IMG/VR virus record: IMGVR_UViG_3300020202_000061
Location: 250,950 to 314,949 of that record
Source of the DNA: a virus
Length of the DNA: 64,000 bases
Reading direction: 5' to 3' (one strand)
Shown: in pieces, positions 11,293 to 63,043 of the stretch
Numbering within the stretch: position 1 is the stretch's first letter
Layout: each line of letters begins with the position of its first letter
Program-made: the position numbers and the translations under genes
Notes under the pieces: model-generated
The model's input: only the letters and a program-made list of their open reading frames with translations
Told to the model about the DNA's origin: nothing
Databases searched by the model: none

Positions 11293-11370
11293 ACGCTATA
11301 TACTAAGAGGCACCGAGGGTTTCAGATGCCTCTATGGGGATTCCAAATCAACAACGGGGTCGAACAACGA

Positions 11371-13305
11371 ATGTCTAATCTCTTCGCGGATTTCAAGACA
11401 ACTTTCGAAAAAACCAGGAAAACCGAACTCTCTCTCCAGGAATACTTGGACCTGTGCAAACAGGATCGAATGGCTTACGCCTGGGCGGTGGAGAGAATGC
11501 TGGCGGCTATCGGCGAGCCCAAGCTAGTTGACACGTCCGAGGACCCGCGCCATTCCAGAATCTTCCTGAACCGCACCATCAAGGTGTATGACGTGTTCAA
11601 GGATTTCTACGGGATGGAGGCGACCATCGAAAAGATCGTCGCCTTCTTCATGAAGGCCGCTCAAGGTCTGGAAGAGAAGAAGCAGGTTCTCTATCTGATG
11701 GGGCCGGTTGGATCGGCTAAGTCCTCTCTGGCAGAGCGTCTCAAGGCTCTGATGGAGAAGATGCCGATCTACGTGCTCAAGGCGGGTGATCAAATCAGCC
11801 CGGTGTTCGAGAATCCCTTGGGTCTGTTCGATCCGAACGTGTGGAGTGATCGCCTCCAAGAGGAATACGGGATTCCTCGTCGTTATCTGACCGGGTTGAT
11901 GTCGCCTTGGGCGGTAAAGCGCCTGAACGAGGACTTCGACGGGGATATCAGCAAGTTCAGTGTGGTGAAGCTCTACCCGAGCAAGCTCAAGCAGATAGCG
12001 ATCTCCAAGGTCGAACCCGGTGACGAGAACAACCAAGACATTTCGTCTCTGGTCGGTAAGGTTGATATCCGCAAGCTGGCGGAGTTCTCCGCTCGTGATA
12101 CCGATGCCTACAGCTACTCCGGTGGTCTCTGCTTGGCCAACCAGGGCGTGCTGGAGTTCGTCGAGATGTTCAAGGCACCGATCAAGATGCTGCATCCGAT
12201 GCTCACCGCGACCCAGGAGGGCAACTACAACGGCACCGAGGCGATCTCTGGTATTCCGTTCCAGGGTGTGATTCTGGCCCACTCCAACGAATCCGAATGG
12301 GAGTCGTTCAAGAGCAACAAGAACAACGAGGCATTCCTCGACCGCATCAGCATCATCAAGGTCCCTTACTGCCTGCGTGTCACGGACGAGACCAAAATTT
12401 ACCAGAAGCTCTTGCGTGATTCGTCCCTGGACAAGGCTCCATGCACACCCAAGACGCTGGAATTGCTCTCCCAAATGAGCGTGCTTTCCCGTCTGATCTA
12501 TCCGGAGAACTCTTCGATCCATTCGAAGATGAAGGTCTACGATGGTGAGAACATCAAGGAAACCGATCCCTACGCCAAATCTGTTCAGGAATATCGTGAA
12601 CTGGCCGGGGTCAACGAGGGTATGACCGGTCTCAGCACCCGCTGGGCTTTCAAGGTGCTGTCATCGGTGTTCAATTATGATCCGAACGAGATCGGCGCGA
12701 ATCCGGTCCATCTGTTCCGTATCTTGGAGGACAAGATCACTGAGGAACAATTCCCGAAGGAAGTCGAAGAGGACCTTCGTGAACACCTCCAGTGGATCAA
12801 GGCCAAGTACATCGATTTCATCGGCAATGAAATCCAGGTTGCCTACCTGGAGTCCTACACCGAATACGGCCAGAACATGTTCGACCGCTACATCGTCTAT
12901 GCGGATCATTGGATCGAGGATCGGGACTATCGTGATTCCGAGACCGGCGAGATGTACAACCGCGAAACCCTGAATAAGGAACTCGAAAAGATCGAGAAGC
13001 CCTCCGGTATCGCGAATCCCAAGGAATTCCGTAACGAGGTGGTCAACTACTCTCTCCGTTACAAGGCCAACCACGGCAAGTATCCGAGGTGGAACTCCTA
13101 CGAGAAGCTCAAGGAAATCATCGAGAAGAAGATGTTCGCGAACATCTCTGATCTCCTGCCGGTGATCTCGTTCGAGAAGAAATCCTCCGAGGAGCACGAG
13201 AAGAAGCACAAGGATTTTGTGCAGCGCATGAAAGAGAAGGGATACAGCGAGCGCCAGACCCGTATCGTCGTGGACTGGTTCATGAAGGTACAGAAGTCCA
13301 ACTGA
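11371..13305 (+). CDS. prkA: PrkA/YeaG-family serine protein kinase
   Basis: N-terminus LQEYLDLCKQDRMAYAWAVERMLAAIGEP and P-loop YLMGPVGSAKSSLAERLK parallel E. coli YeaG; alternative start 11326. Confidence 0.85.
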   Translation: MSNLFADFKTTFEKTRKTELSLQEYLDLCKQDRMAYAWAVERMLAAIGEPKLVDTSEDPRHSRIFLNRTIKVYDVFKDFYGMEATIEKIVAFFMKAAQGLEEKKQVLYLMGPVGSAKSSLAERLKALMEKMPIYVLKAGDQISPVFENPLGLFDPNVWSDRLQEEYGIPRRYLTGLMSPWAVKRLNEDFDGDISKFSVVKLYPSKLKQIAISKVEPGDENNQDISSLVGKVDIRKLAEFSARDTDAYSYSGGLCLANQGVLEFVEMFKAPIKMLHPMLTATQEGNYNGTEAISGIPFQGVILAHSNESEWESFKSNKNNEAFLDRISIIKVPYCLRVTDETKIYQKLLRDSSLDKAPCTPKTLELLSQMSVLSRLIYPENSSIHSKMKVYDGENIKETDPYAKSVQEYRELAGVNEGMTGLSTRWAFKVLSSVFNYDPNEIGANPVHLFRILEDKITEEQFPKEVEEDLREHLQWIKAKYIDFIGNEIQVAYLESYTEYGQNMFDRYIVYADHWIEDRDYRDSETGEMYNRETLNKELEKIEKPSGIANPKEFRNEVVNYSLRYKANHGKYPRWNSYEKLKEIIEKKMFANISDLLPVISFEKKSSEEHEKKHKDFVQRMKEKGYSERQTRIVVDWFMKVQKSN

Positions 13306-13316
13306 GGGCTATCATA

Positions 13317-14606
13317 GTGACCACGGTCATTGACAGACGTAAGACCGACCGCCAGAAGAACCTCTCCAATAGGCAGAGGTTCATCAAAAGAGCCAAGGAA
13401 GCGATCAAGAAGTCGATCCGTGGAGCCATCCTCAATAAGGATCGCTCGATCAAAGACTCATCCGGCGGTAATGTTCGAATCCCCAACAAAGGGACGACAG
13501 AGCCGAATTTCCGCAATGGAGACGGTGGTCGTAAGATCATCGTTCGTCCGGGTAATCCAGGCACTGTGCCGGGTGACAAGATTCCACGTCCCAGAAAGGA
13601 TCAGACTTCGGGCCGTGGTAACAGTGATCCATCCAAAGACCCCGCTGAGTTGATGGATGAGTTCGAGTTCACGCTGACCCGTGAGGAATTTCTGGACTTC
13701 TTCTTTGAGGACCTGGAATTGCCCAACTTGGTCAAGACCGCCCTCAAAGAGGTGGTCGAGTACAAATGGTCCCGTTCGGGATTTGCCTCGGTCGGTATGC
13801 CGTCGAATCTCGACATTACCCGAACCTTCATCAATTCGATGGGTCGCCATTTCGCTCTGGCCGGAGCCTACCAGAAAAAGATCGACGAACTTCGCGCTAA
13901 TGGTGGATCGGAAGAGGATATCGCGCTCTGGGAGAAGAGGAAGCGGACCATCCCGTTCATGGATGACGTGGACCTGCGCTATCGCCTGTTTGTGAAGCAG
14001 CCCAAGCCGATCACCAAAGCGGTAATGTTCTGTCTGATGGACGTATCTGGCAGTATGGGCGAGTACGAGAAGGACTTGGCCAAGCGTTTCTTCATGCTCC
14101 TCTACATGTTTCTGGAGCGCAAATACGAGTCGGTCACCGTGGTGTTCATCCGTCATACCACCGAAGCCAAAGAGGTGGACGAGCAGGAGTTCTTCTACTC
14201 GAAAGAATCAGGTGGAACCGTGGTCAGCACGGCTCTGGAAATGACTGCTGATCTGATTCAGCGGCGCTTCAACAGTTCAGACTACAACATCTACGTGAGC
14301 CAGTGTTCGGACGGCGACAATGCCTACGATGACAACTCCGTGTGCACCCAGATCATCCGTGAGGATATTCTGCCTTATGTCCAGTATTTTGCGTATGTCC
14401 AGGTCGGACATCAGCGCGATGAGATGGCCAACATGTGGGGTGTGTTTGCGGGTCGTCTTGGGAACACCACGAGCACGAATTCCCTCTACGAGGTTTATAA
14501 GGAGATCGAGAAGAATACCTCCCATTTCAAGGTGAAGAACCTGAATGGTCCTGCCGACATCTACCCGGTGTTTCGCGAACTCTTTGAGAAGGACATCAAG
14601 GTATGA
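13317..14606 (+). CDS. yeaH: YeaH/YhbH family protein (DUF444, UPF0229)
   Basis: VIDRRKTDRQKNLSNRQRF…EFLDFFFEDLELPNL…VMFCLMDVSGSM…FFYSKESGGTVVS…DIYPVFRELF colinear with E. coli YeaH. Confidence 0.85.
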   Translation: MTTVIDRRKTDRQKNLSNRQRFIKRAKEAIKKSIRGAILNKDRSIKDSSGGNVRIPNKGTTEPNFRNGDGGRKIIVRPGNPGTVPGDKIPRPRKDQTSGRGNSDPSKDPAELMDEFEFTLTREEFLDFFFEDLELPNLVKTALKEVVEYKWSRSGFASVGMPSNLDITRTFINSMGRHFALAGAYQKKIDELRANGGSEEDIALWEKRKRTIPFMDDVDLRYRLFVKQPKPITKAVMFCLMDVSGSMGEYEKDLAKRFFMLLYMFLERKYESVTVVFIRHTTEAKEVDEQEFFYSKESGGTVVSTALEMTADLIQRRFNSSDYNIYVSQCSDGDNAYDDNSVCTQIIREDILPYVQYFAYVQVGHQRDEMANMWGVFAGRLGNTTSTNSLYEVYKEIEKNTSHFKVKNLNGPADIYPVFRELFEKDIKV

Positions 14607-20277: not shown

Positions 20278-20363
20278 GCCGGGATGGCTGAGTGGTCGAA
20301 AGCAGGCGTTTCGTAAGCGTCCGAAGCAATTCCTCGCAGGTTCGAATCCTGTTCCCGGCTCCA
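20278..20363 (+). tRNA. class II (Ser-type scaffold, long variable arm) tRNA with anticodon CGT
   Basis: 86 nt; acceptor gccggga/tcccggc; Ser-like D-arm tggctgagtggtcgaaagc; anticodon stem ggcgt/gcgtc with loop ttCGTaa; variable arm about 15 nt; T-arm gcaggttcgaatcctgt; CCA. Confidence 0.7.
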
Positions 20364-24998: not shown

Positions 24999-25084
24999 GC
25001 CAGGATGGCTGAGTGGCCGAAAGCAGAGCCTTTGTAACGCTCCGGGGAAACCCCACGCAGGTTCGAATCCTGTTCCTGGCTCCA
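24999..25084 (+). tRNA. class II (Ser-type scaffold) tRNA with anticodon TGT; paralog of the 20278 gene
   Basis: 86 nt; acceptor gccagga/tcctggc; D-arm tggctgagtggccgaaagc; anticodon stem gagc(c)/(c)gctc with loop ttTGTaa; long variable arm; T-arm gcaggttcgaatcctgt; CCA. Confidence 0.7.
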
Positions 25085-29649: not shown

Positions 29650-29737
29650 GGAGAGTAAACCCCTGAGGTTGGGGTGCCGCCTGGAAAGCGGTCAGGACCT
29701 GAAAGGGTCTACGGTTCGAGTCCGTTGCTCTCCTCCA
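29650..29737 (+). tRNA. tRNA-Ser (GGA), class II
   Basis: acceptor ggagagt/gctctcc; anticodon stem gccgc/gcggt with loop ctGGAaa; long variable arm; T-arm acggttcgagtccgt; CCA. Confidence 0.8.
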
Positions 29738-31124: not shown

Positions 31125-32900
31125 ATGGGTGGTTTGCTATTTCTGGCATTTGGGCTCGTTGCCCTTCTTTTGATCGGAGCATTCGCTCCGAATTTCATTC
31201 ACAAAATCCTTACCAGCAAAGAATCGGAGCCGAGCAAGCTCCTGGTTCAGGCTCCGCGTGTCATCGCGTGGGGTGTGATGGTGGTGTGGGTTCTCAGTCT
31301 CTCGTTCGTGCACGTACCGATTGGTCAAGTCGGTATGTTGAACCTGATCTGGGGTGCCGAGCGTGAGCAGGGCGCGATCCTCGCTCGTAGTGGAAGTCAG
31401 CGTGGTCCGCAGACCGATCTTCTCGGACCCGGAACCAAATTCATCCCGTTCGTGCACGTGCTGTATGACGTGGAGACGGCCGATCAGTTCGTGGTGCCGG
31501 ATGGCTTCTACGGCCTATTGACGGCCAAGGATGGCGCTCCGATGCCAGCGGGTCAGTATGTGGCTCCGGCCTGGAAGGAAGGCACAGAGAGCGAAATGCT
31601 CGACGCCGCCACGTTCCTCACCAAGGGCGGGATCAAGGGTCCGCAACTCTACGTGCTGACGCCGGGTATCTACCCGCTGAACACCTACCTGTGGGACGCT
31701 CGCACCGAGGCTGCTTCCGATACCAATTCCGGAACAAGGGCCACAATCATCCCGGCTGGTTCCGTGGGTGTGGTGAAGTCGAACGTGACCGATCCCGGTA
31801 TCGTCTGCAAGCAGGTCGAGGAAAAGGTGGACACAACCGTGGCCCACGATTCGAACGCGCTCTCCGCGCTACTCGTTCCGAAGGGTTGCACCGGTATCTG
31901 GAATGAAGTGCTGACGCCGGGTGCGTATTACCTGAACCGTCTCGCCTATCAGGTGACCATCGTCGATACGCGTGTTCAAACTCTCCAGTACGCTGGTGGT
32001 TACGACTCGCGCAAGATCGAACTGAATGTCGGCCTGGACGGCAAGATCGAGCAAGCCGAGTCCGCGTCCAAGATCAGCACGCCCGAAGGTGCAGCGGATT
32101 CCGCGATCAACGTGAAGGTTGGTTCCTGGGTGGTTCATCAGGACCTCAGGATGGTGATCCAGGTCAGTCCGGAAAACGCCCCCATCGTGGTGGGTGCGGT
32201 CGGTGGACTCAAGCAGATCGAGGATTCCATCGTGACCCCGGCGGTGCAGTCGGTCGTGCGTGACGTGATGGGCGGCCTGCTGTTGTTCCCGAGCGAAACC
32301 GTCGCACGTCAGGTTGAGATCAACGATCTGATCGTGAACCGCGAATTCATCCAGAGCGTGATCGAGGATCGTATCCGCGCCGAGGGGGCCAAGGCGGGTT
32401 TGTCCGTGCGTGAGGTTCGTCTGGCCAATCCGGACATTCCGCCCGAAATGCTTCTCGGCAACAAGCGTGAGCAGCTTGCCCAGCAGATGAAGCAGGCGTT
32501 CGAGCAGGAAGAAGTTACGCAGACCCAGCGTATCAAGGTGGAGCAGGCCAAGGCCACTGCCGATCAGCAGGAATCCCTGGTGACCGCGCAGATCGGCGTG
32601 GAAGTCTCCAAGCTGACCATCAACAAGCGCACCAACGAGGGTCAGGCCGAACAGGCTTACCTGGAAGCGCTCGCTGCGGGTCAGAAGGCCCAGGCTTTGG
32701 TCCTGGGCGAAGAGAACGTGCTGATCCTGAATATGGTCGATAAGGTCCTGGCTAGTCTCGGAAAGAACCCGGAAATCCTGGGCTCGATCAAGCTGCCCTC
32801 GACCATGGTCATGGGAGGCGGTTCGTTTGAGGGGGTGGCGGCAATCGTGAAGGACGCGCTCGGGGGAGCGCCTCGTTCCGAAGCGAAGCTGCCACAGTAA
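31125..32900 (+). CDS. SPFH (band 7) / flotillin-like membrane protein
   Basis: N-terminal TM; SPFH-like core; C-terminal coiled coil with flotillin-like EA-rich repeats (QAKATADQQESLVTAQIGVEVSKL…QAEQAYLEALAAGQKAQALVLG). Confidence 0.6.
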   Translation: MGGLLFLAFGLVALLLIGAFAPNFIHKILTSKESEPSKLLVQAPRVIAWGVMVVWVLSLSFVHVPIGQVGMLNLIWGAEREQGAILARSGSQRGPQTDLLGPGTKFIPFVHVLYDVETADQFVVPDGFYGLLTAKDGAPMPAGQYVAPAWKEGTESEMLDAATFLTKGGIKGPQLYVLTPGIYPLNTYLWDARTEAASDTNSGTRATIIPAGSVGVVKSNVTDPGIVCKQVEEKVDTTVAHDSNALSALLVPKGCTGIWNEVLTPGAYYLNRLAYQVTIVDTRVQTLQYAGGYDSRKIELNVGLDGKIEQAESASKISTPEGAADSAINVKVGSWVVHQDLRMVIQVSPENAPIVVGAVGGLKQIEDSIVTPAVQSVVRDVMGGLLLFPSETVARQVEINDLIVNREFIQSVIEDRIRAEGAKAGLSVREVRLANPDIPPEMLLGNKREQLAQQMKQAFEQEEVTQTQRIKVEQAKATADQQESLVTAQIGVEVSKLTINKRTNEGQAEQAYLEALAAGQKAQALVLGEENVLILNMVDKVLASLGKNPEILGSIKLPSTMVMGGGSFEGVAAIVKDALGGAPRSEAKLPQ

Positions 32901-37796: not shown

Positions 37797-37830
37797 ATAT
37801 TGGAAACCACTCGGTATTCCTGTAAAATGC

Positions 37831-37859
37831 TTGACATTTTCGACATTTTCGAGTATAAT
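37831..37859 (+). promoter_or_regulatory. consensus sigma70 promoter (TTGACA-17-TATAAT) for peptide deformylase
   Basis: TTGACA 37831-37836; TATAAT 37854-37859. Confidence 0.7.
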
Positions 37860-37865
37860 CCTCCG

Positions 37866-38297
37866 ATGCCGTTGAAGCTGATCCCGGACACCGATCCCGT
37901 ATTGCATGAGAAGGCCGAACCCGTTCAGAACGTGAACGAGGAAGTCGAGCCCGTGCTGATGGAAATGATCGCGATCATGGTCCGCGCCGGGGGCGTCGGT
38001 TTGGCCGCGCCCCAGGTCGGAATCAAGAAGCGTTTCTTCATCATCGCCTACGGCGGTCTGACCAACGTCTACATCAATCCGGAGATCGTCAAGTCGGAGC
38101 CCAAAACCGTCAATATGGTGGAGGGTTGCCTGAGTTATCCCGGTCAGAATCGTGAAATTGTTCGTCACGAGCGCATCCGCGTGGCCTACACCACGATCAC
38201 TGGAGAGCACAAGTCTCACTACGTGAATGGGATGATGGCCCGCATCTTCCAGCACGAACTCGATCACCTTGATGGAATTGTTTTCTTGGAACGATAA
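37866..38297 (+). CDS. def: peptide deformylase
   Basis: motif 1 GVGLAAPQVG, motif 2 EGCLS, motif 3 HELDHLDG. Confidence 0.85.
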   Translation: MPLKLIPDTDPVLHEKAEPVQNVNEEVEPVLMEMIAIMVRAGGVGLAAPQVGIKKRFFIIAYGGLTNVYINPEIVKSEPKTVNMVEGCLSYPGQNREIVRHERIRVAYTTITGEHKSHYVNGMMARIFQHELDHLDGIVFLER

Positions 38298-41119: not shown

Positions 41120-41195
41120 GCCAGATTACAGTTTAGTGGTAGAACACGCGGCCGATAACCGTGGAGCGGGGGTTCGATTCCCTCATCTGGCACCA
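41120..41195 (+). tRNA. tRNA with anticodon GAT (Ile-type) and atypical features
   Basis: 76 nt; acceptor gccagat/atctggc; CCA; anticodon stem cgcgg/ccgtg with loop ccGATaa (C33); 2-nt insertion before D-stem gttt/gaac. Confidence 0.6.
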
Positions 41196-46508: not shown

Positions 46509-46927
46509 AGCTTCCACCCATTCAGGGTGGCCAAATAGGTCAGGAGGCGCTGGCGGTCAGAATTCCCCGCTATGGGGATATCCTGGTGGAATCGGTCGGG
46601 CCGTGCGTATCCGAGCATGACCATGAGGTCCTTGAACCCGGTCTGAACCTGGATGTTGCCGTGGACACCCATTTGGTGGGCCATGCGGACCAACCCCATG
46701 AAGGTGCGGGTGCGCTCGTATTCGGTCTCCCTGGGAAGGCGACGGTGTTCCAGGTCCCAGTAAGCCTGTCGGGCGTCGGGTTTAGCCATGATGAGGCGGA
46801 ATTTCGGACGGATTTGGCGGAAGGTCAACGCGACCGGACCCGGCACAGGAATCTTGCGGGCGATGGTTTGTCGAACACGACCGGGAACTTCCGCATCAGG
46901 GCGGCTATAAATCTCAAACAGATTCAT
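46505..46927 (-). CDS. hypothetical protein downstream of the amidoligase
   Basis: ORF 140 aa; TGATG-coupled to the amidoligase gene. Confidence 0.5.
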   Translation of the reverse strand: MNLFEIYSRPDAEVPGRVRQTIARKIPVPGPVALTFRQIRPKFRLIMAKPDARQAYWDLEHRRLPRETEYERTRTFMGLVRMAHQMGVHGNIQVQTGFKDLMVMLGYARPDRFHQDIPIAGNSDRQRLLTYLATLNGWKL

Positions 46928-48372
46928 TCTGCTGCTTTCGGATAGAATTGCTTGGCACGGTAGAGTTGCTCGAAATGCTTGCGGCCGGTCTCGACCGCGA
47001 CCTTATAGAGCTTGGTCAGAAACTCCTTGCGATAGACCTCGGGAGTGGTGGCCACGTACATCATCACGATCAGTTGTAGACAAGTGTCCTCGATCTCGGA
47101 CCAACGATCCTCGTAGTCGGAGTTGCCTGCGGCACGAAACTCGATGTAGCCCTGATCTAGTTTGGTCAGGTTGACCCGGAAGTATTTCTGTTTGGGTACG
47201 GCACGACGAAACAATTCGATCACCTTTTGGATGTCCTGCTGGTTCAGTCTGATCCGACCACCAAGATTCGAGAGCACGCGCATAAGCTCGGCTTTGTTCC
47301 GGGCGAAGTTCTGCACCATTTGGTAATAGGTCTGTGCGGCCATTACCCCGCTGTTCACGGCGTGACCCTCACCCTTATTGAATTGGAGACGGTCGTAATT
47401 CTGTGCGATGTAGGCGTCTCCCATCAGGAACAACAGCTTCACGTAATCCACATCAGCACCAGCCTTGCCAATGTTGATGTGCAAACCCGTAGCCTGATTC
47501 GTCTCGGCTTGAGTTCCAGGAATGTGCCGACCGATGTTCTGGATGAACAGGAGCACCTTGTGCAAGGCTTTCAAACCTTCTGCCGCAGGCTTAATCGGTG
47601 AGACCACCTCGACACCGACCATGCCTTGTTCCCATAGCTCGTTGATGTCCAGTGAGTTGTCCATGGTAACGGCCCAGGTCGAGTAGTTGTGGGTCTTCGT
47701 CTTGGTATCGCCCCGCATCAACCGCACCACCACGGGTTCACCCAGATACTCCTCAAGCGCCTCGGCGATTACCTGATAGAGAACCTCGATCTGAACATGA
47801 CTGTCATTGGGATCGAAATTCTGATCCTCCTCACCGATCATGAACTGCCTGTAGCTCTCATCATCGAGGTTCTTATAGGCGACCATCCCCACACGATCAC
47901 CTTTCGCGATAAGACGTTTGATCTTGCGCAGGGCAGTTTCATCCTCGATGTCGAAACCCTCATCCGGCCACACACGAAGAGCCGTGATCAAGCCGTAGGG
48001 TTTGAACTTCTTGACCAACGCCCCAAACATATCCCGGAACTTGGTCTGTCCGGCCTCGGGGAAATTGGCCTGAAATAGACGGTCCATGCGCTCGCGGACG
48101 ATCTCTTGATTGTCCTGTCCCAGACCTTCCGCACCGAGCGGGGTGAAACTCTTCAACAGATCGTACCACCGGAGGTCTCCCAGCTTCTTCACGTACCAGA
48201 AACGATCCTTGCTGCGACTGGAATTCTTCTTGTAGAGACCGGCCATTCTCTTGGCCGCGTTCAACACGTAGAACTCCGTCTCGAATCCCATCGTCATGTT
48301 GGGATCGGCCAGAGCCTGATTGATTAGGGCTTGCCGGACCTTGGCCCCCTCGAAGAGAATCGGGTTTGTCAT
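46924..48372 (-). CDS. putative amidoligase (glutamine synthetase/GCS2-like carboxylate-amine ligase family)
   Basis: N-terminal MTMGFETEFYVL (G-x-E-x-E start typical of the family); 482 aa; assignment by pattern only. Confidence 0.55.
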   Translation of the reverse strand: MTNPILFEGAKVRQALINQALADPNMTMGFETEFYVLNAAKRMAGLYKKNSSRSKDRFWYVKKLGDLRWYDLLKSFTPLGAEGLGQDNQEIVRERMDRLFQANFPEAGQTKFRDMFGALVKKFKPYGLITALRVWPDEGFDIEDETALRKIKRLIAKGDRVGMVAYKNLDDESYRQFMIGEEDQNFDPNDSHVQIEVLYQVIAEALEEYLGEPVVVRLMRGDTKTKTHNYSTWAVTMDNSLDINELWEQGMVGVEVVSPIKPAAEGLKALHKVLLFIQNIGRHIPGTQAETNQATGLHINIGKAGADVDYVKLLFLMGDAYIAQNYDRLQFNKGEGHAVNSGVMAAQTYYQMVQNFARNKAELMRVLSNLGGRIRLNQQDIQKVIELFRRAVPKQKYFRVNLTKLDQGYIEFRAAGNSDYEDRWSEIEDTCLQLIVMMYVATTPEVYRKEFLTKLYKVAVETGRKHFEQLYRAKQFYPKAAE

Positions 48373-48405: not shown

Positions 48406-48837
48406 ATGACTAGAGAACCCGTATTCTCGTTGACCCGAAAGGATTTTCGCCTGGAATGGTTTAGTGGCACCGGACCGGGCGGTCAAAACCGCAACAAGGT
48501 TCAGGCGTGTTGCCGAATCACCCATATCGCCACGGGTATCCAGGCGACCTGCCAGGAACACCGTGAACGCTCCAAAAACCAAAAAGCCGCGTTCAAGGTC
48601 CTGGTTGAGCGTCTGATGCCGTGGATCGAGGAACAGGTCAACGGGAAACGTCCCGATTATAACCCCCAGACCGATACGATTCGCACCTATCACGTCGCGG
48701 ATAATCGTGTGAAGGATCACGATTCGGGTTATCGTCAGACCTGGGATGAGGTCGAACGCGATCTATCCAAGATGATTGAGGCTCGCCTTCAACAAAAAGT
48801 CCGCACCGAACTTGAAAAACAACAGGACGAATCCTAA
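48406..48837 (+). CDS. arfB: ArfB-like peptidyl-tRNA hydrolase (class I release-factor GGQ domain protein)
   Basis: GGQ motif in SGTGPGGQNRNKVQ; about 140 aa with basic C-terminal tail, as in ArfB/YaeJ. Confidence 0.8.
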   Translation: MTREPVFSLTRKDFRLEWFSGTGPGGQNRNKVQACCRITHIATGIQATCQEHRERSKNQKAAFKVLVERLMPWIEEQVNGKRPDYNPQTDTIRTYHVADNRVKDHDSGYRQTWDEVERDLSKMIEARLQQKVRTELEKQQDES

Positions 48838-59266: not shown

Positions 59267-59679
59267 CGGCGAAGTGATTTCCGCGTCAGATAATTGATCA
59301 CCGAATCGGTCAGCGCTTCCATGCGATCCTGGAGGCGCTGGATCGACCGCTTCACCTCGATGATCTGGCTCTCGACGTTCTTGATCTGCACCCGCACGGT
59401 GCCATCCAGGGTCTCCTGAAGCACTGCAAGCTTCTGTTCGAGGTCGGCGAGTTCCCTCTGGACCTCCTCAATCTCTTGCTCAGTCTTGGGATCAGCATGC
59501 TGAACGGGGTCCTTTTCCTTCTCCCCATCCACACGATTCTCGATCCACATACGAGCGACCTGAACCACACCAAGAACCACGGTGGTGACCGCACCCAAAA
59601 CGGATGCGACTAGGCCAAAAGCTCCGGCCCAGGATAAAGGTTTGAAAACCTCTACAATATCAACCAACAAGTCCATCAT
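59263..59679 (-). CDS. membrane-anchored coiled-coil protein
   Basis: 138 aa; N-terminal TM then coiled coil. Confidence 0.45.
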   Translation of the reverse strand: MMDLLVDIVEVFKPLSWAGAFGLVASVLGAVTTVVLGVVQVARMWIENRVDGEKEKDPVQHADPKTEQEIEEVQRELADLEQKLAVLQETLDGTVRVQIKNVESQIIEVKRSIQRLQDRMEALTDSVINYLTRKSLRR

Positions 59680-60214
59680 GACGGAATTCTGCCTTTAGGC
59701 GATACAGGTCTTTAAGAACCGTGTACTCGGCTGTTACATCTCGAATGATCCCCACGGTGCCCAGGTACTCCCCGTTTCTGATCGGGTAATAATTGATATG
59801 CAGGGTATGACCCCGATCCAGGGTCACCTCAAATTCTCCTTCTTCTCCTTTCGTGGCCAGGGTCCAGTGATCCTTCACGAACTCTCGCCACCGACGCCCA
59901 AAGATGAGTTCACCCTGCTCGGGCAACTTCATCTGAGTTGATTCCTTCGGGGTAAATCCTAGAAGCGTGCAGGCAGAGGGGTTGACAAACTCGATACGGC
60001 CATTGGGGTCCGTCTTGAACAGACCGATATTGATCCGCTCGGCTATGATTCGCAGAGATTCTTGTGCCTCGAACAAAGGCTTTTCATATGCTTCCATCGC
60101 CAAAGGTCCAAAATCGTTATGACCAGCATATTTATGCCATGCACGATCCGTGAGGCGTTCCACCGGGAACAACACGACGTTTTTGACGAGCGCAACATTT
60201 TCCCTGGTGTACAT
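59660..60214 (-). CDS. PAS domain protein
   Basis: GLFKTDPNGRIEFVNPSACTLLGFTPKE… single PAS fold; 184 aa. Confidence 0.6.
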   Translation of the reverse strand: MYTRENVALVKNVVLFPVERLTDRAWHKYAGHNDFGPLAMEAYEKPLFEAQESLRIIAERINIGLFKTDPNGRIEFVNPSACTLLGFTPKESTQMKLPEQGELIFGRRWREFVKDHWTLATKGEEGEFEVTLDRGHTLHINYYPIRNGEYLGTVGIIRDVTAEYTVLKDLYRLKAEFRHDGLVG

Positions 60215-60726: not shown

Positions 60727-61139
60727 GAAAATTTGATCCTCATGCGCAGGGCGATGATGACGATAGCAGAGTAGGGACTGCGACTGGCCAACACCTTGTA
60801 GTACCGGTACGGGTCATCCTGGCGCAGAGCCGCGCCCCACCACGGACGATCCTTCGGAACAACCGATTGCCAGAGTTCAGCCAGATGCCACCCCTCGGGG
60901 ATCACCTTCTGGGCATCCTCGAAATCGCTGAGGTAACGAGGTGCCTTGTAGACGAACTCCTGCTGGGTCAGTTTCCAGTAGATGGCCTGCTCAATATCAC
61001 GGAGTTCTTGATCGTCCAGAAGGATCGGAGGATTCTTCTTGGGGTCCTCCGGGATCAACGCGTGGCGCTCCAGCTTCTGGAGGATATCCTCCAGTGGGCC
61101 GTCCATGAGGGGTTCGAGTTGGTCCTCGTTGTAGGCCAT
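60723..61139 (-). CDS. hypothetical protein
   Basis: ATG at 61137-61139 (complement) inside ORF 60723..61235; start overlaps the upstream stop. Confidence 0.45.
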   Translation of the reverse strand: MAYNEDQLEPLMDGPLEDILQKLERHALIPEDPKKNPPILLDDQELRDIEQAIYWKLTQQEFVYKAPRYLSDFEDAQKVIPEGWHLAELWQSVVPKDRPWWGAALRQDDPYRYYKVLASRSPYSAIVIIALRMRIKFS

Positions 61140-61825
61140 CACTTGACTTCTTTGGTGTTGTCGAACACACCCAGATGGATGTTGAAATCCGCTCCCGTAT
61201 TGAACAGGATCAGCGTGTGATGGGGATTGCGCCAAACCGTCTGGGGCAGATGACGACTACAATGGAGTTCGCACTGGTAGGTGGGTTCGTCCTCCATTTC
61301 CTCTCGGGTGTCGGCGAAGCTGACCTCATAGGAGGTGACCGACCAGAAGTAGTTGCGGCAATCCACCAACGGGAACGTGCGGTAGCCCTCCTCGTAGCCG
61401 AACAGCTTGTGGATGTCCTGTTCCATCTTGAAGTAGTCACTAAGATGGGCGTTGGCTCGATCATGAGCACGCTGTTCATCCTGAGCCTTCAAGATAGCTT
61501 GATGATCCGGATTGATCGCCCATAGCGGAGGATCATCATTCGGAACCGCCTGGATGACCTCGGCCTTCTCCACCATGGAATGCCACGACAGGAGGTCCGT
61601 GACCTGTCCAGATCGACCCTTCAACGAGTGGTTCTCACAGATGAAATCCACCGGGTGACCCAGCACGGTCATCCACTGAAACTCCACATAGGAGTTACCC
61701 TGGTTGTTCGCGTTGAACGCGGCCAACACGATCAGATTCTCCATGCGCCGAACCCCTGTGTTCAGGGTACGATGCAGACGAAGAACATCACCCTTTCGGG
61801 GATCAAGACGTGGGTCACGCGTCAC
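61139..61825 (-). CDS. hypothetical protein
   Basis: ORF 228 aa, GTG start. Confidence 0.5.
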   Translation of the reverse strand: MTRDPRLDPRKGDVLRLHRTLNTGVRRMENLIVLAAFNANNQGNSYVEFQWMTVLGHPVDFICENHSLKGRSGQVTDLLSWHSMVEKAEVIQAVPNDDPPLWAINPDHQAILKAQDEQRAHDRANAHLSDYFKMEQDIHKLFGYEEGYRTFPLVDCRNYFWSVTSYEVSFADTREEMEDEPTYQCELHCSRHLPQTVWRNPHHTLILFNTGADFNIHLGVFDNTKEVK

Positions 61826-62424
61826 TGAATTACCTTTTTCAGGTCGATGGTGATGGAACGCTCACCCATGTTCCACTTCCCGGCCGTAGCCAGGGTAGCG
61901 GTATCGGCGAGAACACGACGAAGGACGAAGGACTGCTCCTGCGCGGCCTGTTCCAGAGTCTGGTAGCGTTTCAGAGCCATGCGGGTATCGCGGTTCTTCT
62001 TCACACCAACACGAACATCGAAGTTCTTCGCCAGAGCCTCGCGAATGTGGTTCAGCTTGGTCTCGTAGTCGTGCGGACCGATGTTGAGGCCGAAGTAGAA
62101 CTCTTTGAATCCACGATCACGTTCGTGGTTCTTCTTTGCCTGCTCTTTCTTGCGCTTCTCCTCCTCATACTTGAACTTGCCGTAGTCGAGGAGCTTGATC
62201 ACGGGCGGCTTTGCGTCCTTGTCCAGCATGATCAGATCGAGACCCGAGTTGACGCGAAGCCAGTGCGCTTCGGACTGGGTCAGGATTCGACTTTTTTGAT
62301 CATCCGGAATTCCCTCTCGCGAATCGATCAATCGGACCTGTTCGGGAAGAATTCGGGTGTCCTGGATAAGACGTTCATCCTTCTGACGCTGCGGACGGGC
62401 AGAGTTCAAATCTTGTGGTCGCAA
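61822..62424 (-). CDS. infC: translation initiation factor IF-3 homolog
   Basis: colinear with bacterial IF3: ARPQRQKDERLIQD…VRLIDSREG (N-domain) and PPVIKLLDYGKFKYEEEKRKKEQAKK…FGLNIGPHDYETKLNHIREALAKNFDVRV (C-domain). Confidence 0.8.
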   Translation of the reverse strand: MRPQDLNSARPQRQKDERLIQDTRILPEQVRLIDSREGIPDDQKSRILTQSEAHWLRVNSGLDLIMLDKDAKPPVIKLLDYGKFKYEEEKRKKEQAKKNHERDRGFKEFYFGLNIGPHDYETKLNHIREALAKNFDVRVGVKKNRDTRMALKRYQTLEQAAQEQSFVLRRVLADTATLATAGKWNMGERSITIDLKKVIQ

Positions 62425-62427
62425 AAC

Positions 62428-62763
62428 TTATTCACCTTCCAGTTGGGGTTGATAGAAATCCGGGAATAACACGAAGTTGGAACCGGATTGAATCACACAA
62501 TATGTGGATTCCGTATCGTAGACCACGAGGGTCCACTTCCTGGTATCCGCATTTGCATAGAAAAATTTGCGAATCCCTTGTATATCATCGTCATAACGAT
62601 GGACCAAGGTTTCACCCTCCTGGAGGAGACTCCATTCGATTTGCTCAATATCGGGCGAACACGTGCGATAGTCGCTGGCCCACACAGGAGCCATCACAAC
62701 GCCGACCAAGCCCAGAGCCAAAAGAAGATTCTTCAATAGCAGCGGTAGATGGAAATCTCTCAT
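62428..62763 (-). CDS. secreted hypothetical protein
   Basis: signal peptide LLLALGLVGVVMAPVWA. Confidence 0.45.
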   Translation of the reverse strand: MRDFHLPLLLKNLLLALGLVGVVMAPVWASDYRTCSPDIEQIEWSLLQEGETLVHRYDDDIQGIRKFFYANADTRKWTLVVYDTESTYCVIQSGSNFVLFPDFYQPQLEGE

Positions 62764-62794: not shown

Positions 62795-63043
62795 TCAAGT
62801 GGAGATTTTCGGGAATTTGCCCTCACGGACCGCCGCCTGAAGCTTGTCGAAACCCCCAACATGTTCACCATTCCAGAATACCTGCGGAACATAGCGCTCC
62901 GTAGGCATCTTCTGAAAGAACTCGGCTCGTGCTGCTTTGTCCTTCATGATGTCCTTGTATTCGTAGGGCCACTGATTCTGCTCGATCAGAGCCTTAGCCT
63001 GGACGCAGTATGGGCAATTATCCTTACCGTAGATTAGAAACAT
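62795..63043 (-). CDS. glutaredoxin (NrdH/Grx-like)
   Basis: CPYC active site at residues 10-13; 82 aa. Confidence 0.7.
   Translation of the reverse strand: MFLIYGKDNCPYCVQAKALIEQNQWPYEYKDIMKDKAARAEFFQKMPTERYVPQVFWNGEHVGGFDKLQAAVREGKFPKIST

What the first reader, a model, noticed from the sequence alone, without database searches (positions are those of the whole stretch)
61822..62424. Phage-encoded translation initiation factor IF3 homolog
A minus-strand 200-aa ORF is colinear with both bacterial IF3 domains, including the basic linker. Viral infC homologs are rare. With the peptide deformylase, the ArfB-like hydrolase and 20 tRNAs, the phage appears to carry a partial translation toolkit, possibly to bias start-codon selection or ribosome recycling during infection.
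Basis: partly seen in the sequence, partly recalled or inferred. Interest (0 to 1): 0.8.

Follow-up and report, generated by a model that had tools for sequence, protein, structure and literature searches.

The report
Divergent IF3 gene in jumbo phage

Summary
Observation confirmed. Window 61822-62424 (-) is a 200-aa ORF with a TTG start and a good Shine-Dalgarno. It is colinear with IF3: N-domain, Lys/Arg-rich linker helix and C-domain. Support comes from Pfam IF3_N (56.6 bits), TIGR00168 (74.7 bits, cutoff 60), hhalign against bacterial IF3 (probability 100%, E 9e-41, residues 27-200), and an AF2 model (pLDDT 84.5) whose top PDB matches are all IF3.

The gene is phage-borne, not host contamination. 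It sits in a syntenic block (glutaredoxin, IF3-like, NADAR/YAcAr, with PhoH and DUF444-SpoVR nearby) that recurs on metagenomic contigs up to 218-281 kb. PolB is nearest to jumbo myoviruses. dN/dS is 0.07.

"Rare and novel" is overstated. IF3 homologues occur in 76 GenBank phage records and 37 IMG/VR loci, have a PHROG family, and are published (Al-Shayeb 2020; Iyer 2021; Sharanji 2025).

What is new is a discrete sub-family (58 sequences retrieved here; 42 clusters at 90% identity), all metagenomic. Its C-domain falls below the Pfam threshold, carries a 7-aa insertion in the RFRGRE loop, and lacks the bacterial CTD arginines. D106/Y107/K110, R133 and the tRNA-elbow residue R25 are kept. The TTG start is conserved in 8 of 9 examined genes.

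Function is inferred, not shown. Interest is moderate.

The parts
61822..62424 (-). IF3-like CDS (200 aa plus TGA stop)
   Evidence: ORF listing. Pfam, NCBIfam and PHROG hits. hhalign against bacterial IF3 gives probability 100%. AF2 and Foldseek top hits are IF3. dN/dS is 0.074 against the L049 orthologue.
62422..62424 (-). TTG start codon, conserved across the sub-family
   Evidence: It is the first possible start after an in-frame TAA. TTG is also used in L001, L005, L045, L047, L048 and L049, and is inferred in L046. Only L003 uses ATG. Neighbouring genes use TTG in 2 of 140 cases.
62432..62438 (-). Shine-Dalgarno-like AAGGTGA, 7 nt upstream of the TTG
   Evidence: Read directly from the sequence. 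Orthologues have AAGGAG-type motifs at the same place.
62185..62361 (-). IF3 N-terminal domain (about aa 22-80)
   Evidence: PF05198, residues 25-95, 56.6 bits. Foldseek match to 1tif, TM 0.74. R31 corresponds to the bacterial invariant R25 and K77 to R66.
62113..62184 (-). Lys/Arg-rich helical inter-domain linker (aa 81-104)
   Evidence: AF2 helix at residues 81-104. 10 K/R in 24 residues, pI 9.7. Y86 corresponds to E. coli Y75.
61825..62112 (-). Divergent IF3 C-terminal domain (aa 105-200)
   Evidence: PF00707 scores only 22.0 bits against GA 34.8 and covers profile positions 4-59 of 86. The AF2 topology is nevertheless beta-alpha-beta-alpha-beta-beta. Foldseek match to 1tig has TM 0.80 and rmsd 2.5 A. 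hhalign aligns the domain through residue 200. D119/Y120/K123 correspond to D106/Y107/K110. pI is 9.85, equal to the E. coli CTD. CTD dN/dS is 0.077.
61969..61989 (-). Sub-family-specific 7-aa insertion (D146-K152), between the positions aligned to bacterial G132 and R133 in the RFRGRE loop
   Evidence: MAFFT and hhalign agree on its position. AF2 predicts a short helix at 145-150. It is conserved in all sub-family members.
62795..63043 (-). Glutaredoxin gene, the conserved upstream neighbour of the IF3-like gene
   Evidence: PF00462, 57 bits. Glutaredoxin lies immediately or one small ORF upstream of the IF3-like gene in L001, L003, L005, L045, L047, L048, L049 and the P0277 contig.
62428..62763 (-). 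111-aa ORF with a hydrophobic N-terminus, between glutaredoxin and IF3-like. Its stop lies 3 nt before the IF3 TTG.
   Evidence: No Pfam hit. Small ORFs sit at this position in L045, L047 and L049.
61139..61825 (-). 228-aa ORF whose GTG start overlaps the IF3 stop (GTGA), suggesting translational coupling
   Evidence: No Pfam hit. The same 4-nt overlap with a 230-aa ORF occurs in L049.
37800..38297 (+). Peptide deformylase (context: translation-related gene set)
   Evidence: PF01327, 150.8 bits; phrog_2890. The three PDF motifs are present.
48406..48837 (+). 143-aa RF-1-domain GGQ protein (ArfB-like; context)
   Evidence: GGQ motif. PF00472, 1.5e-21. 59% identical to the RF-1 gene of L001.

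Best explanation
The ORF encodes a functional, phage-borne member of the IF3 family with an N-domain, a basic linker helix and a C-domain. It belongs to a discrete sub-family that is inherited vertically in one lineage of uncultivated jumbo phages.

Most likely it binds the host 30S subunit at the normal IF3 site. The C-domain would sit on the platform near the P site, using helix H3 (the equivalents of D106/Y107/K110) and its basic surface. The N-domain would contact the initiator-tRNA elbow through the equivalents of R25 and R66. In this role it would act as an anti-association and initiation-fidelity factor that supplements or replaces host IF3 during infection.

Together with the phage's tRNAs, peptide deformylase and ArfB-like rescue factor, it would keep a pool of initiation-competent 30S subunits available for phage mRNAs. 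The remodelled RFRGRE loop suggests altered contacts with mRNA, start codon or rRNA relative to host IF3.

Shown here: homology, fold, phage location, synteny and purifying selection. Inferred: 30S binding and everything downstream of it.
For: Homology over the full length.

Structure: the AF2 model has pLDDT 84.5 and the canonical two-domain architecture. All Foldseek matches with E <= 1e-3 are IF3 or mtIF3. 1tif matches the N-domain at TM 0.74 and 1tig the C-domain at TM 0.80.

Functionally implicated residues are retained (roles from PMC9723500 and PMC3401457):
- R25 to R31, invariant.
- R66 to K77.
- Y75 to Y86.
- D106 to D119, invariant.
- Y107 to Y120.
- K110 to K123.
- R133 to R153, invariant.

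The basic character is preserved: pI 9.72 overall and 9.85 for the CTD, the same as the E. coli CTD.

Purifying selection acts on both domains. dN/dS is 0.070 for N-domain plus linker and 0.077 for the C-domain.

Phage context:
- T4-type PolB hits phrog_262 at 6.6e-170.
- The nearest PolB relatives are jumbo phages at 32-34% identity.
- 37 PHROG families are matched.
- There are 17-18 tRNAs.
- Window 48.4-64 kb is colinear with L001, L003 and L005.
- The same glutaredoxin, IF3-like, NADAR block recurs on contigs up to 218-281 kb.

No bacterial IF3 exceeds 45% local identity, or 38% across most of the protein.
Against: - No experiment exists on this or any other phage IF3. The Sharanji paper says so explicitly.
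- The C-domain carries most IF3 activities in bacteria (PMC9723500), and it is the diverged part here. Pfam IF3_C is below threshold.
- The bacterial CTD arginines R99, R112, R116 and R131 have no aligned arginine.
- The loop implicated in start-codon discrimination carries a 7-aa insertion. Binding mode or activity could therefore differ substantially.
- The host is unknown, so no comparison with the host's own IF3 was possible.
- No virion genes lie in this window. Phage identity rests on replication and nucleotide-metabolism genes and on synteny.
Confidence: 0.65

Rival explanations
1. Stringency and autoregulation model. The phage IF3 has a shifted or stronger start-codon discrimination that includes UUG, and perhaps GUG. 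It would repress its own TTG-initiated mRNA, an analogue of the bacterial infC AUU feedback. It would also tilt initiation towards the almost exclusively ATG-initiated phage mRNAs and away from host mRNAs that start with GUG or UUG.
For: - The TTG start is conserved in 8 of 9 examined genes of the sub-family, across protein identities down to about 33-36%.
- Only 2 of 140 neighbouring genes use TTG, and 135 of 140 use ATG.
- The insertion lies in the loop containing R131, which has been implicated in start-codon discrimination (PMC3401457).
- The residues that contact the tRNA elbow and affect fidelity are retained.
Against: - With E. coli IF3, a 10-fold excess has only a marginal effect on UUG-initiated mRNA, while AUU is strongly repressed (PMC5499595). 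TTG is therefore not the classical autoregulatory signal.
- TTG may simply set a low expression level.
- Its conservation may partly reflect shared ancestry.
- High ATG usage is common in phages generally.
- Host start-codon usage is unknown.
Confidence: 0.15
2. Decoy or inhibitor. The protein occupies the IF3 site on host 30S subunits but is defective in one or more IF3 activities. It would shut down or relax host initiation, for example by permitting initiation on unusual phage mRNAs, rather than supporting normal initiation.
For: - The C-domain is strongly diverged and lacks the arginines needed for full 30S binding and dissociation activity in E. coli (PMC3401457).
- The N-domain and linker are the best-conserved parts.
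Against: - The phage's own genes in the syntenic block have canonical Shine-Dalgarno plus ATG starts. There is no sign that relaxed fidelity is needed.
- The C-domain is under the same strong purifying selection as the N-domain.
- It keeps D106, K110 and R133 equivalents and its basic pI.
- Mitochondrial IF3s also lack these arginines yet are functional IF3s (PMC3401457).
Confidence: 0.1
3. Repurposed RNA-binding protein. The IF3 scaffold has been recruited for a non-ribosomal task, such as binding phage tRNAs or mRNAs.
For: - The C-domain diverges from all cellular IF3s.
- The conserved neighbours are a glutaredoxin and NADAR/YAcAr rather than translation genes.
Against: - The complete two-domain-plus-linker architecture is retained, together with residues specific to 30S and initiator-tRNA contacts.
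- No extra domains are present.
Confidence: 0.05
4. Host-derived contamination, or a recently captured host infC passenger gene with no phage-specific role.
For: IF3 is universal in bacteria, and the protein passes the TIGR00168 cutoff.
Against: - No bacterial IF3 exceeds 45% local identity, or 38% across most of the protein.
- The sub-family is separated from every other IF3 by a score gap: at least 142 bits against at most 122 bits.
- No member comes from a named bacterial isolate.
- The neighbours are not thrS, rpmI or rplT but phage-lineage genes in conserved synteny on contigs of 40-281 kb.
- dN/dS is 0.07.
Confidence: 0.02

Closest known systems
Bacterial translation initiation factor IF3 (InfC; TIGR00168; Pfam IF3_N PF05198 plus IF3_C PF00707; structures 1TIF, 1TIG, 5LMN)
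   Same: - Same length class, with an N-domain, a basic helical linker and a beta-alpha-beta-alpha-beta-beta C-domain.
- hhalign probability 100% over residues 27-200.
- Equivalents of R25, R66, Y75, D106, Y107, K110 and R133 are conserved.
- Same pI.
- The gene starts with a non-ATG codon.
   Different: - At most 45% local identity, or 38% across most of the protein.
- IF3_C is below the Pfam gathering score.
- A 7-aa insertion sits inside the RFRGRE loop and a 3-aa insertion in helix alpha2. R99, R112, R116 and R131 have no arginine counterpart.
- The start codon is TTG rather than AUU.
- The gene is not in a thrS-infC-rpmI-rplT context. It lies in a phage block next to glutaredoxin.
Previously annotated phage IF3 homologues: Asteriusvirus group (121Q gp47, PBECO4, Sharanji gp294), Atu_ph07, Sinorhizobium phage Phosso, Salmonella phages Munch/7t3, huge phages of Al-Shayeb et al. 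2020; PHROG 9787
   Same: - A phage-encoded IF3 homologue on a jumbo or huge phage genome rich in tRNAs and other translation-related genes.
- Matches phrog_9787.
- The window's PolB is most similar to this assemblage of jumbo myoviruses.
   Different: - Not orthologous in any detectable way. Identity is 30-31%, and only over the N-domain and linker.
- The sub-family profile scores Sharanji and Phosso at 85-86 bits, no better than E. coli IF3 at 89 bits.
- Sharanji and Phosso IF3s pass IF3_C (51.8 and 105.5 bits).
- All 37 IMG/VR IF3s have no long insertion there, and most keep an [RK]F[RK]GRE-type motif.
- The neighbourhoods differ: Clp adaptor or ClpX instead of glutaredoxin.
- Start codons are ATG and GTG rather than TTG.
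Mitochondrial IF3 (mtIF3 / Aim23p)
   Same: It is a bona fide IF3 that has lost the bacterial CTD arginines and acquired lineage-specific insertions, while keeping D106 and K110 equivalents (PMC3401457). mtIF3 chains are among the significant sequence and fold hits. This shows that such divergence is compatible with IF3 function.
   Different: mtIF3 has N- and C-terminal extensions and a linker insertion, not an insertion in the beta2-alpha2 loop. There is no specific relationship: the sequence matches have E about 1e-3.

Membership tests
IF3 / InfC protein family | IF3 N-terminal domain (PF05198) above the Pfam gathering score | tested here: met
   56.6 bits against 26.9, residues 25-95 matching profile positions 5-70 of 70. 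Fold match to 1tif, TM 0.74.
IF3 / InfC protein family | IF3 C-terminal domain (PF00707) above the Pfam gathering score | tested here: not met
   22.0 bits against 34.8, and only profile positions 4-59 of 86 are aligned. Phage IF3s of Sharanji and Phosso pass with 51.8 and 105.5 bits.
IF3 / InfC protein family | C-domain homology and beta-alpha-beta-alpha-beta-beta fold, shown by profile-profile and structure comparison | tested here: met
   hhalign gives probability 100% and E 8.8e-41, aligned through residue 200. The AF2 secondary-structure order is correct. Foldseek match to 1tig has TM 0.80 and rmsd 2.5 A.
IF3 / InfC protein family | NCBIfam TIGR00168 (equivalog) score cutoff | tested here: met
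   74.7 bits against 60, but the aligned stretch is only residues 23-143 against profile positions 9-122 of 170.
IF3 / InfC protein family | Basic, helical inter-domain linker | tested here: met
   AF2 helix at residues 81-104. 10 K/R in 24 residues. The DYGKFKYEE motif is conserved.
IF3 / InfC protein family | Residues implicated in initiator-tRNA and 30S contacts (R25, R66, Y75, D106, Y107, K110, G132-R133) | tested here: met
   R31, K77, Y86, D119, Y120, K123 and R153 align to them. D119 and R153 are invariant across the 26-sequence sub-family alignment, and R31 is nearly invariant (at least 90%). Roles are taken from PMC9723500 and PMC3401457. G132 itself is not kept.
IF3 / InfC protein family | Bacterial CTD arginines and a contiguous RFRGRE loop (R99, R112, R116, R131) | tested here: not met
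   These positions align to G112, N125, E129 and N144, and a 7-aa insertion splits the loop. The same arginines are not conserved in mitochondrial IF3 either.
IF3 / InfC protein family | Rare start codon that IF3 itself discriminates against (AUU in E. coli infC), giving autoregulation | tested here: inconclusive
   The start codon is a conserved TTG. E. coli IF3 barely discriminates against UUG.
IF3 / InfC protein family | Housekeeping context thrS-infC-rpmI-rplT (established knowledge of bacterial operons) | tested here: not met
   The neighbours are glutaredoxin, hypothetical ORFs, a PAS protein and NADAR/YAcAr. The same holds in eight related loci.
IF3 / InfC protein family | Binds 30S, prevents 50S joining, proofreads start codon and initiator tRNA | not testable with these tools
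   This needs biochemistry, cryo-EM or complementation.
Known phage-encoded IF3 homologues (PHROG 9787; Asteriusvirus, Atu_ph07, Phosso, huge phages) | Significant match to the PHROG family, and encoded on a phage genome | tested here: met
   phrog_9787 at 3.8e-19. The phage context is shown.
Known phage-encoded IF3 homologues (PHROG 9787; Asteriusvirus, Atu_ph07, Phosso, huge phages) | Orthology: closer to those phage IF3s than to cellular IF3s, and a shared neighbourhood | tested here: not met
   The sub-family profile scores Sharanji at 85.4, Phosso at 85.6, the IMG/VR set at 81-113, E. coli at 88.9 and the best bacterial sequence at 121.8 bits. Sub-family members score at least 142 bits. 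The neighbourhoods differ.

The most novel reading that the evidence does not exclude
The sub-family's remodelled loop next to the start-codon-discrimination residue gives this phage IF3 a changed proofreading spectrum. It would discriminate against UUG, and perhaps GUG, start codons. This would explain why its own gene keeps a TTG start across the lineage, as negative feedback like infC's AUU. It would also let the phage favour its ATG-initiated mRNAs (about 96% of neighbouring genes) over host mRNAs with non-AUG starts. That would be a virus-encoded reprogramming of initiation fidelity.
Probability: 0.12. Interest if true: 0.7.

Novelty: new variant of a known kind. Interest (0 to 1): 0.4.

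Why it matters
Phage-encoded translation factors are widely catalogued, but none of the IF3 homologues has been characterised.

This sub-family offers a well-defined experimental entry point. It is a vertically inherited, strongly constrained IF3 in which the domain that normally does the work on the 30S subunit has been remodelled exactly at the loop tied to start-codon discrimination. The gene also carries its own conserved non-ATG start codon.

If the protein changes initiation fidelity or selectivity, it would be a direct mechanism for viral takeover of the ribosome. It would also be a natural variant useful for dissecting IF3 function. If it is simply a spare IF3, it still adds a discrete and recognisable clade to phage annotation, where Pfam currently sees only IF3_N.

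Tried and rejected
- Megablast of window 52-64 kb against GenBank phages gave no match.
- tblastn of the protein against GenBank phages gave only four weak gut-phage hits at 32-35% identity.
- A single-protein scan of IMG/VR found no relative.
- An IMG/VR scan with the clade alignment found only ordinary IF3s, none from this sub-family.
Absence of the sub-family from isolate genomes therefore rests only on the protein-database searches.
- I considered the classical infC-type AUU autoregulation. It was rejected as stated, because the codon is TTG and E. coli IF3 hardly affects UUG.
- I considered host contamination or a recent capture. It was rejected on identity, synteny, score gap and dN/dS.
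- My first reading of the MAFFT mapping was that the Arg of the RG loop is lost. This was revised. Both MAFFT and hhalign place the invariant R153 opposite R133, and only R131 lacks a counterpart.
- A sigma-70 promoter and terminator scan of 59-64 kb gave nothing above shuffled expectation, and no minus-strand promoter.
- A search for IF1 or bS21 in the window found none.
- Literature searches found no experimental work on phage IF3.
Full report
**The observation**

The minus-strand ORF 61822..62424 is present as described, at 200 aa. An in-frame TAA lies two codons upstream. The TTG at 62424-62422 is therefore the first possible start, and an AAGGTGA Shine-Dalgarno sits 7 nt before it. The first internal Met is residue 66, inside the N-domain, so no ATG start is possible.

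Profile searches support IF3 homology:
- Pfam IF3_N: 2.9e-15, 56.6 bits against GA 26.9.
- Pfam IF3_C: only 22.0 bits against GA 34.8, covering the first two-thirds of the model.
- TIGR00168 infC: 74.7 bits against cutoff 60, aligned over residues 23-143.
- phrog_9787 'translation initiation factor': 3.8e-19.
- Best PDB sequence matches are IF3 chains 5me0_Y and 5lmn_X, at E about 1e-15.

**Is the C-terminal half really an IF3 C-domain?**

Yes. MAFFT alignments with bacterial IF3s are colinear to the last residue. A profile-profile comparison of 26 sub-family sequences against 67 bacterial IF3s gives probability 100% and E 8.8e-41. It aligns 158 columns, covering window residues 27-200 against E. 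coli residues 21-180.

An AlphaFold2 model built on a 76-sequence alignment has mean pLDDT 84.5. It shows an N-domain, a long helix at residues 81-104, and a beta-alpha-beta-[two short helices]-alpha-beta-beta C-domain. Every Foldseek match in the PDB with E <= 1e-3 is a bacterial or mitochondrial IF3. The isolated domains 1tif and 1tig match with target TM-scores of 0.74 and 0.80. The protein is as basic as E. coli IF3: pI 9.72 overall, and 9.85 for the C-domain in both proteins.

**Residue anatomy**

Positions with established roles are retained:

| E. coli residue | Window residue | Note |
|---|---|---|
| R25 | R31 | tRNA-elbow contact; invariant in bacteria |
| R66 | K77 | tRNA-elbow contact |
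| Y75 | Y86 | |
| D106 | D119 | invariant across the sub-family |
| Y107 | Y120 | |
| K110 | K123 | |
| R133 | R153 | invariant across the sub-family |

Roles are taken from PMC9723500 and PMC3401457.

Other positions are not retained. R99, R112, R116 and R131 align to G, N, E and N. Both MAFFT and hhalign place a 7-residue insertion (D146-K152) between the positions aligned to G132 and R133, inside the bacterial RFRGRE loop. A 3-residue insertion lies in helix alpha2. R131 sits in an exposed loop that has been proposed to contact mRNA and to take part in start-codon discrimination (PMC3401457). The same paper notes that these arginines are not conserved in functional mitochondrial IF3s either. 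Their loss therefore does not by itself argue against IF3 function.

**Phage or host?**

The window carries:
- a T4-type family-B DNA polymerase (phrog_262, 6.6e-170);
- PrkA and DUF444;
- peptide deformylase, an RF-1-domain GGQ protein, dCMP deaminase, MazG, thymidylate kinase, RNA ligase and HNH endonucleases;
- matches to 37 PHROG families in total among 70 ORFs;
- 17 tRNAs by ARAGORN, 16 by Rfam, 18 as the union.

PolB is most similar, at 32-34% identity, to jumbo myoviruses: Phosso, RsoM2USA, SCTP-2 and the 121Q/PBECO4/Sharanji group. PrkA is shared with RsoM2USA and with the >600-kb phages of Al-Shayeb et al.. There is no nucleotide-level match to any GenBank phage. No virion genes fall in this window.

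The strongest evidence is synteny. Genes of L001, L003 and L005, the contigs carrying P0003, P0007 and P0008, map colinearly onto window 48.4-64 kb at 28-63% protein identity.

The order glutaredoxin, (small ORF), IF3-like, then NADAR/YAcAr, with PhoH and DUF444-SpoVR upstream, recurs on the longer contigs, the largest being 218 and 281 kb. On the short contigs L045 and L049 only the glutaredoxin, small-ORF(s), IF3-like part is covered.

The nearest orthologue is L049, 90% identical at the protein level. Against it, dN/dS is 0.074 overall, 0.070 for N-domain plus linker and 0.077 for the C-domain. The gene is therefore a long-standing, selectively maintained gene of a phage lineage.

**How novel is a phage IF3?**

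Not very.
- tblastn with E. coli IF3 finds homologues in 76 GenBank phage records. Many are annotated as IF-3: the whole Asteriusvirus group, Atu_ph07, Phosso, Munch/7t3 and the huge phages LR7565xx.
- IMG/VR yields 37 loci, mostly on contigs of 100-600 kb.
- Al-Shayeb et al. 2020 list IF1 and IF3 among huge-phage genes (PMC7162821).
- Iyer et al. 2021 note IF3 in group 2.2 jumbo phages (PMC7824862).
- The Sharanji paper states that the function in phages cannot be definitively stated (PMC11895373).
- I found no experimental study.

**What is distinctive here**

The window protein belongs to a discrete sub-family.
- A profile of the nine closest sequences was searched against 1.84 billion representatives. 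Only about 19 clusters matched over the full length; about 9,900 other IF3s stopped at profile position 140-145, just before the insertion.
- A wider profile finds 42 clusters at 90% identity scoring at least 149 bits, followed by a drop to 121 bits.
- Re-scoring all 419 collected sequences gives 58 at 142 bits or more, none between 125 and 140, and everything else at 122 bits or less. The last group includes E. coli (89), Sharanji (85), Phosso (86) and the IMG/VR set (81-113).
- None of the 37 IMG/VR IF3s has a long insertion at this site, and most keep an [RK]F[RK]GRE-type motif. Sharanji and Phosso pass Pfam IF3_C.
- Pairwise, the window protein matches Sharanji and Phosso IF3 only over the N-domain and linker, at 30-31% identity. 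Their neighbourhoods differ.
- All sub-family members are metagenomic, and none is from a named isolate.
- The best bacterial hits come from unrelated phyla, so no donor is identifiable.

**The start codon**

The gene starts with TTG, behind a strong Shine-Dalgarno, in the window, L001, L005, L045, L047, L048 and L049. In L046 an AAAGGAG motif followed by 8 nt and a TTG lies inside the called N-terminus, so TTG is the likely start there too. Only L003 uses ATG.

Among 140 other called genes in these loci, 135 start with ATG, 3 with GTG and 2 with TTG. The codon has been kept across protein divergence down to about 33-36% identity. This recalls the rare start codon of bacterial infC.

However, a 10-fold excess of E. 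coli IF3 has only a marginal effect on UUG mRNAs, unlike AUU mRNAs (PMC5499595). The classical feedback cannot simply be assumed. I report this as a conserved, unexplained feature and as the basis of the most novel reading.

**Local organisation**

The gene lies in a tightly packed minus-strand run from 63824 to 59263. The stop of the upstream 111-aa ORF is 3 nt before the TTG. The IF3 stop overlaps the GTG of the next ORF (GTGA), as it does in L049. No sigma-70-like promoter or terminator enrichment was seen. No IF1 or bS21 homologue is present in the window.

**Mechanism**

*Shown:* a full-length IF3-family protein, an IF3 fold in both domains, phage location, lineage conservation, and purifying selection on both domains.

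*Inferred:* it binds host 30S at the IF3 site. It would act as an anti-association and fidelity factor that supplements or replaces host IF3 during infection, alongside the phage tRNAs, deformylase and ArfB-like factor. The remodelled loop may alter mRNA or start-codon contacts.

*Rivals:* a stringency-plus-autoregulation variant, a decoy or inhibitor, a repurposed RNA-binding protein, and host contamination. The last is effectively excluded.

**Verdict**

The gene is a new variant of a known kind: a phage IF3 from a discrete, previously undescribed sub-family. Interest is moderate, at 0.4.

Noticed in passing
window 62422-62424 (-); L001:10001, L005:8590, L045:1404, L046:82, L047:10001, L048:10001, L049:658: The IF3-like gene keeps a TTG start codon across the phage lineage; only L003 uses ATG. 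Only 2 of 140 neighbouring called genes start with TTG. This recalls infC's rare start codon, but UUG is not a codon that E. coli IF3 discriminates against.
   Followed up: partly
window 20278-20363 and 24999-25084 (+): Two tRNA-Thr genes (anticodons CGT and TGT) are 86 nt long according to ARAGORN, and both are confirmed as tRNA by Rfam. That is about 10 nt longer than ordinary tRNA-Thr, suggesting a long variable arm or an insertion.
   Followed up: no
window 259-42020 (+): All tRNA genes are on the + strand. ARAGORN finds 17 and Rfam 16, with a union of 18. Rfam alone finds 41121-41190; ARAGORN alone finds 345-420 and 29650-29737. No tRNA-Met or initiator tRNA is present in this window.
   Followed up: partly
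window 11326-13305 and 13317-14606 (+); L047:4-2858, L048:50-2881: The phage lineage carries the bacterial stress and sporulation-associated genes PrkA, DUF444 (YeaH) and, in relatives, SpoVR (YcgB), with very high Pfam scores. PrkA also occurs in Ralstonia phage RsoM2USA and in uncultured phages larger than 600 kb.
   Followed up: partly
window 59660-60214 (-); L001:11293-11736: A small PAS-domain protein (PAS_9, 6.5e-10) is conserved a few genes downstream of the IF3-like gene. This is an unusual sensor-type domain for a phage.
   Followed up: no
window 48406-48837 (+); L003:15666-16066: The window has a 143-aa ArfB-like GGQ protein. In the relative L003, the RF-1-domain gene also carries a PCRF domain, so it looks like part of a full class-I release factor.
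   Followed up: no
window ORFs scanned (individual coordinates not resolved): Pfam hits among the window's ORFs include a GapR-like DNA-binding domain (6.5e-32), cREC_REC, DUF1643, R2K-clade ATP-grasp domains, an Amidoligase_2 protein (46924-48372) and an SPFH/Band-7 protein (31125-32900). GapR may hint at an alphaproteobacterial host.
   Followed up: no
LR756504.1 109771-110301 and 118661-120538 (GenBank huge phage): In one 636-kb uncultured phage, an ordinary IF3 homologue (47.5% identical to E. coli IF3) lies about 8 kb from a PrkA gene that is 60% identical to the window's PrkA. This is a possible distant link between the lineages.
   Followed up: no
L006:5500-6045 (Sharanji) and L007:3658-4917 (Phosso): In both cultured jumbo phages examined, the IF3 gene lies directly next to a Clp-related gene: a Clp adaptor in Sharanji and a ClpX-like ATPase in Phosso. 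No such gene adjoins the window's IF3-like gene.
   Followed up: no
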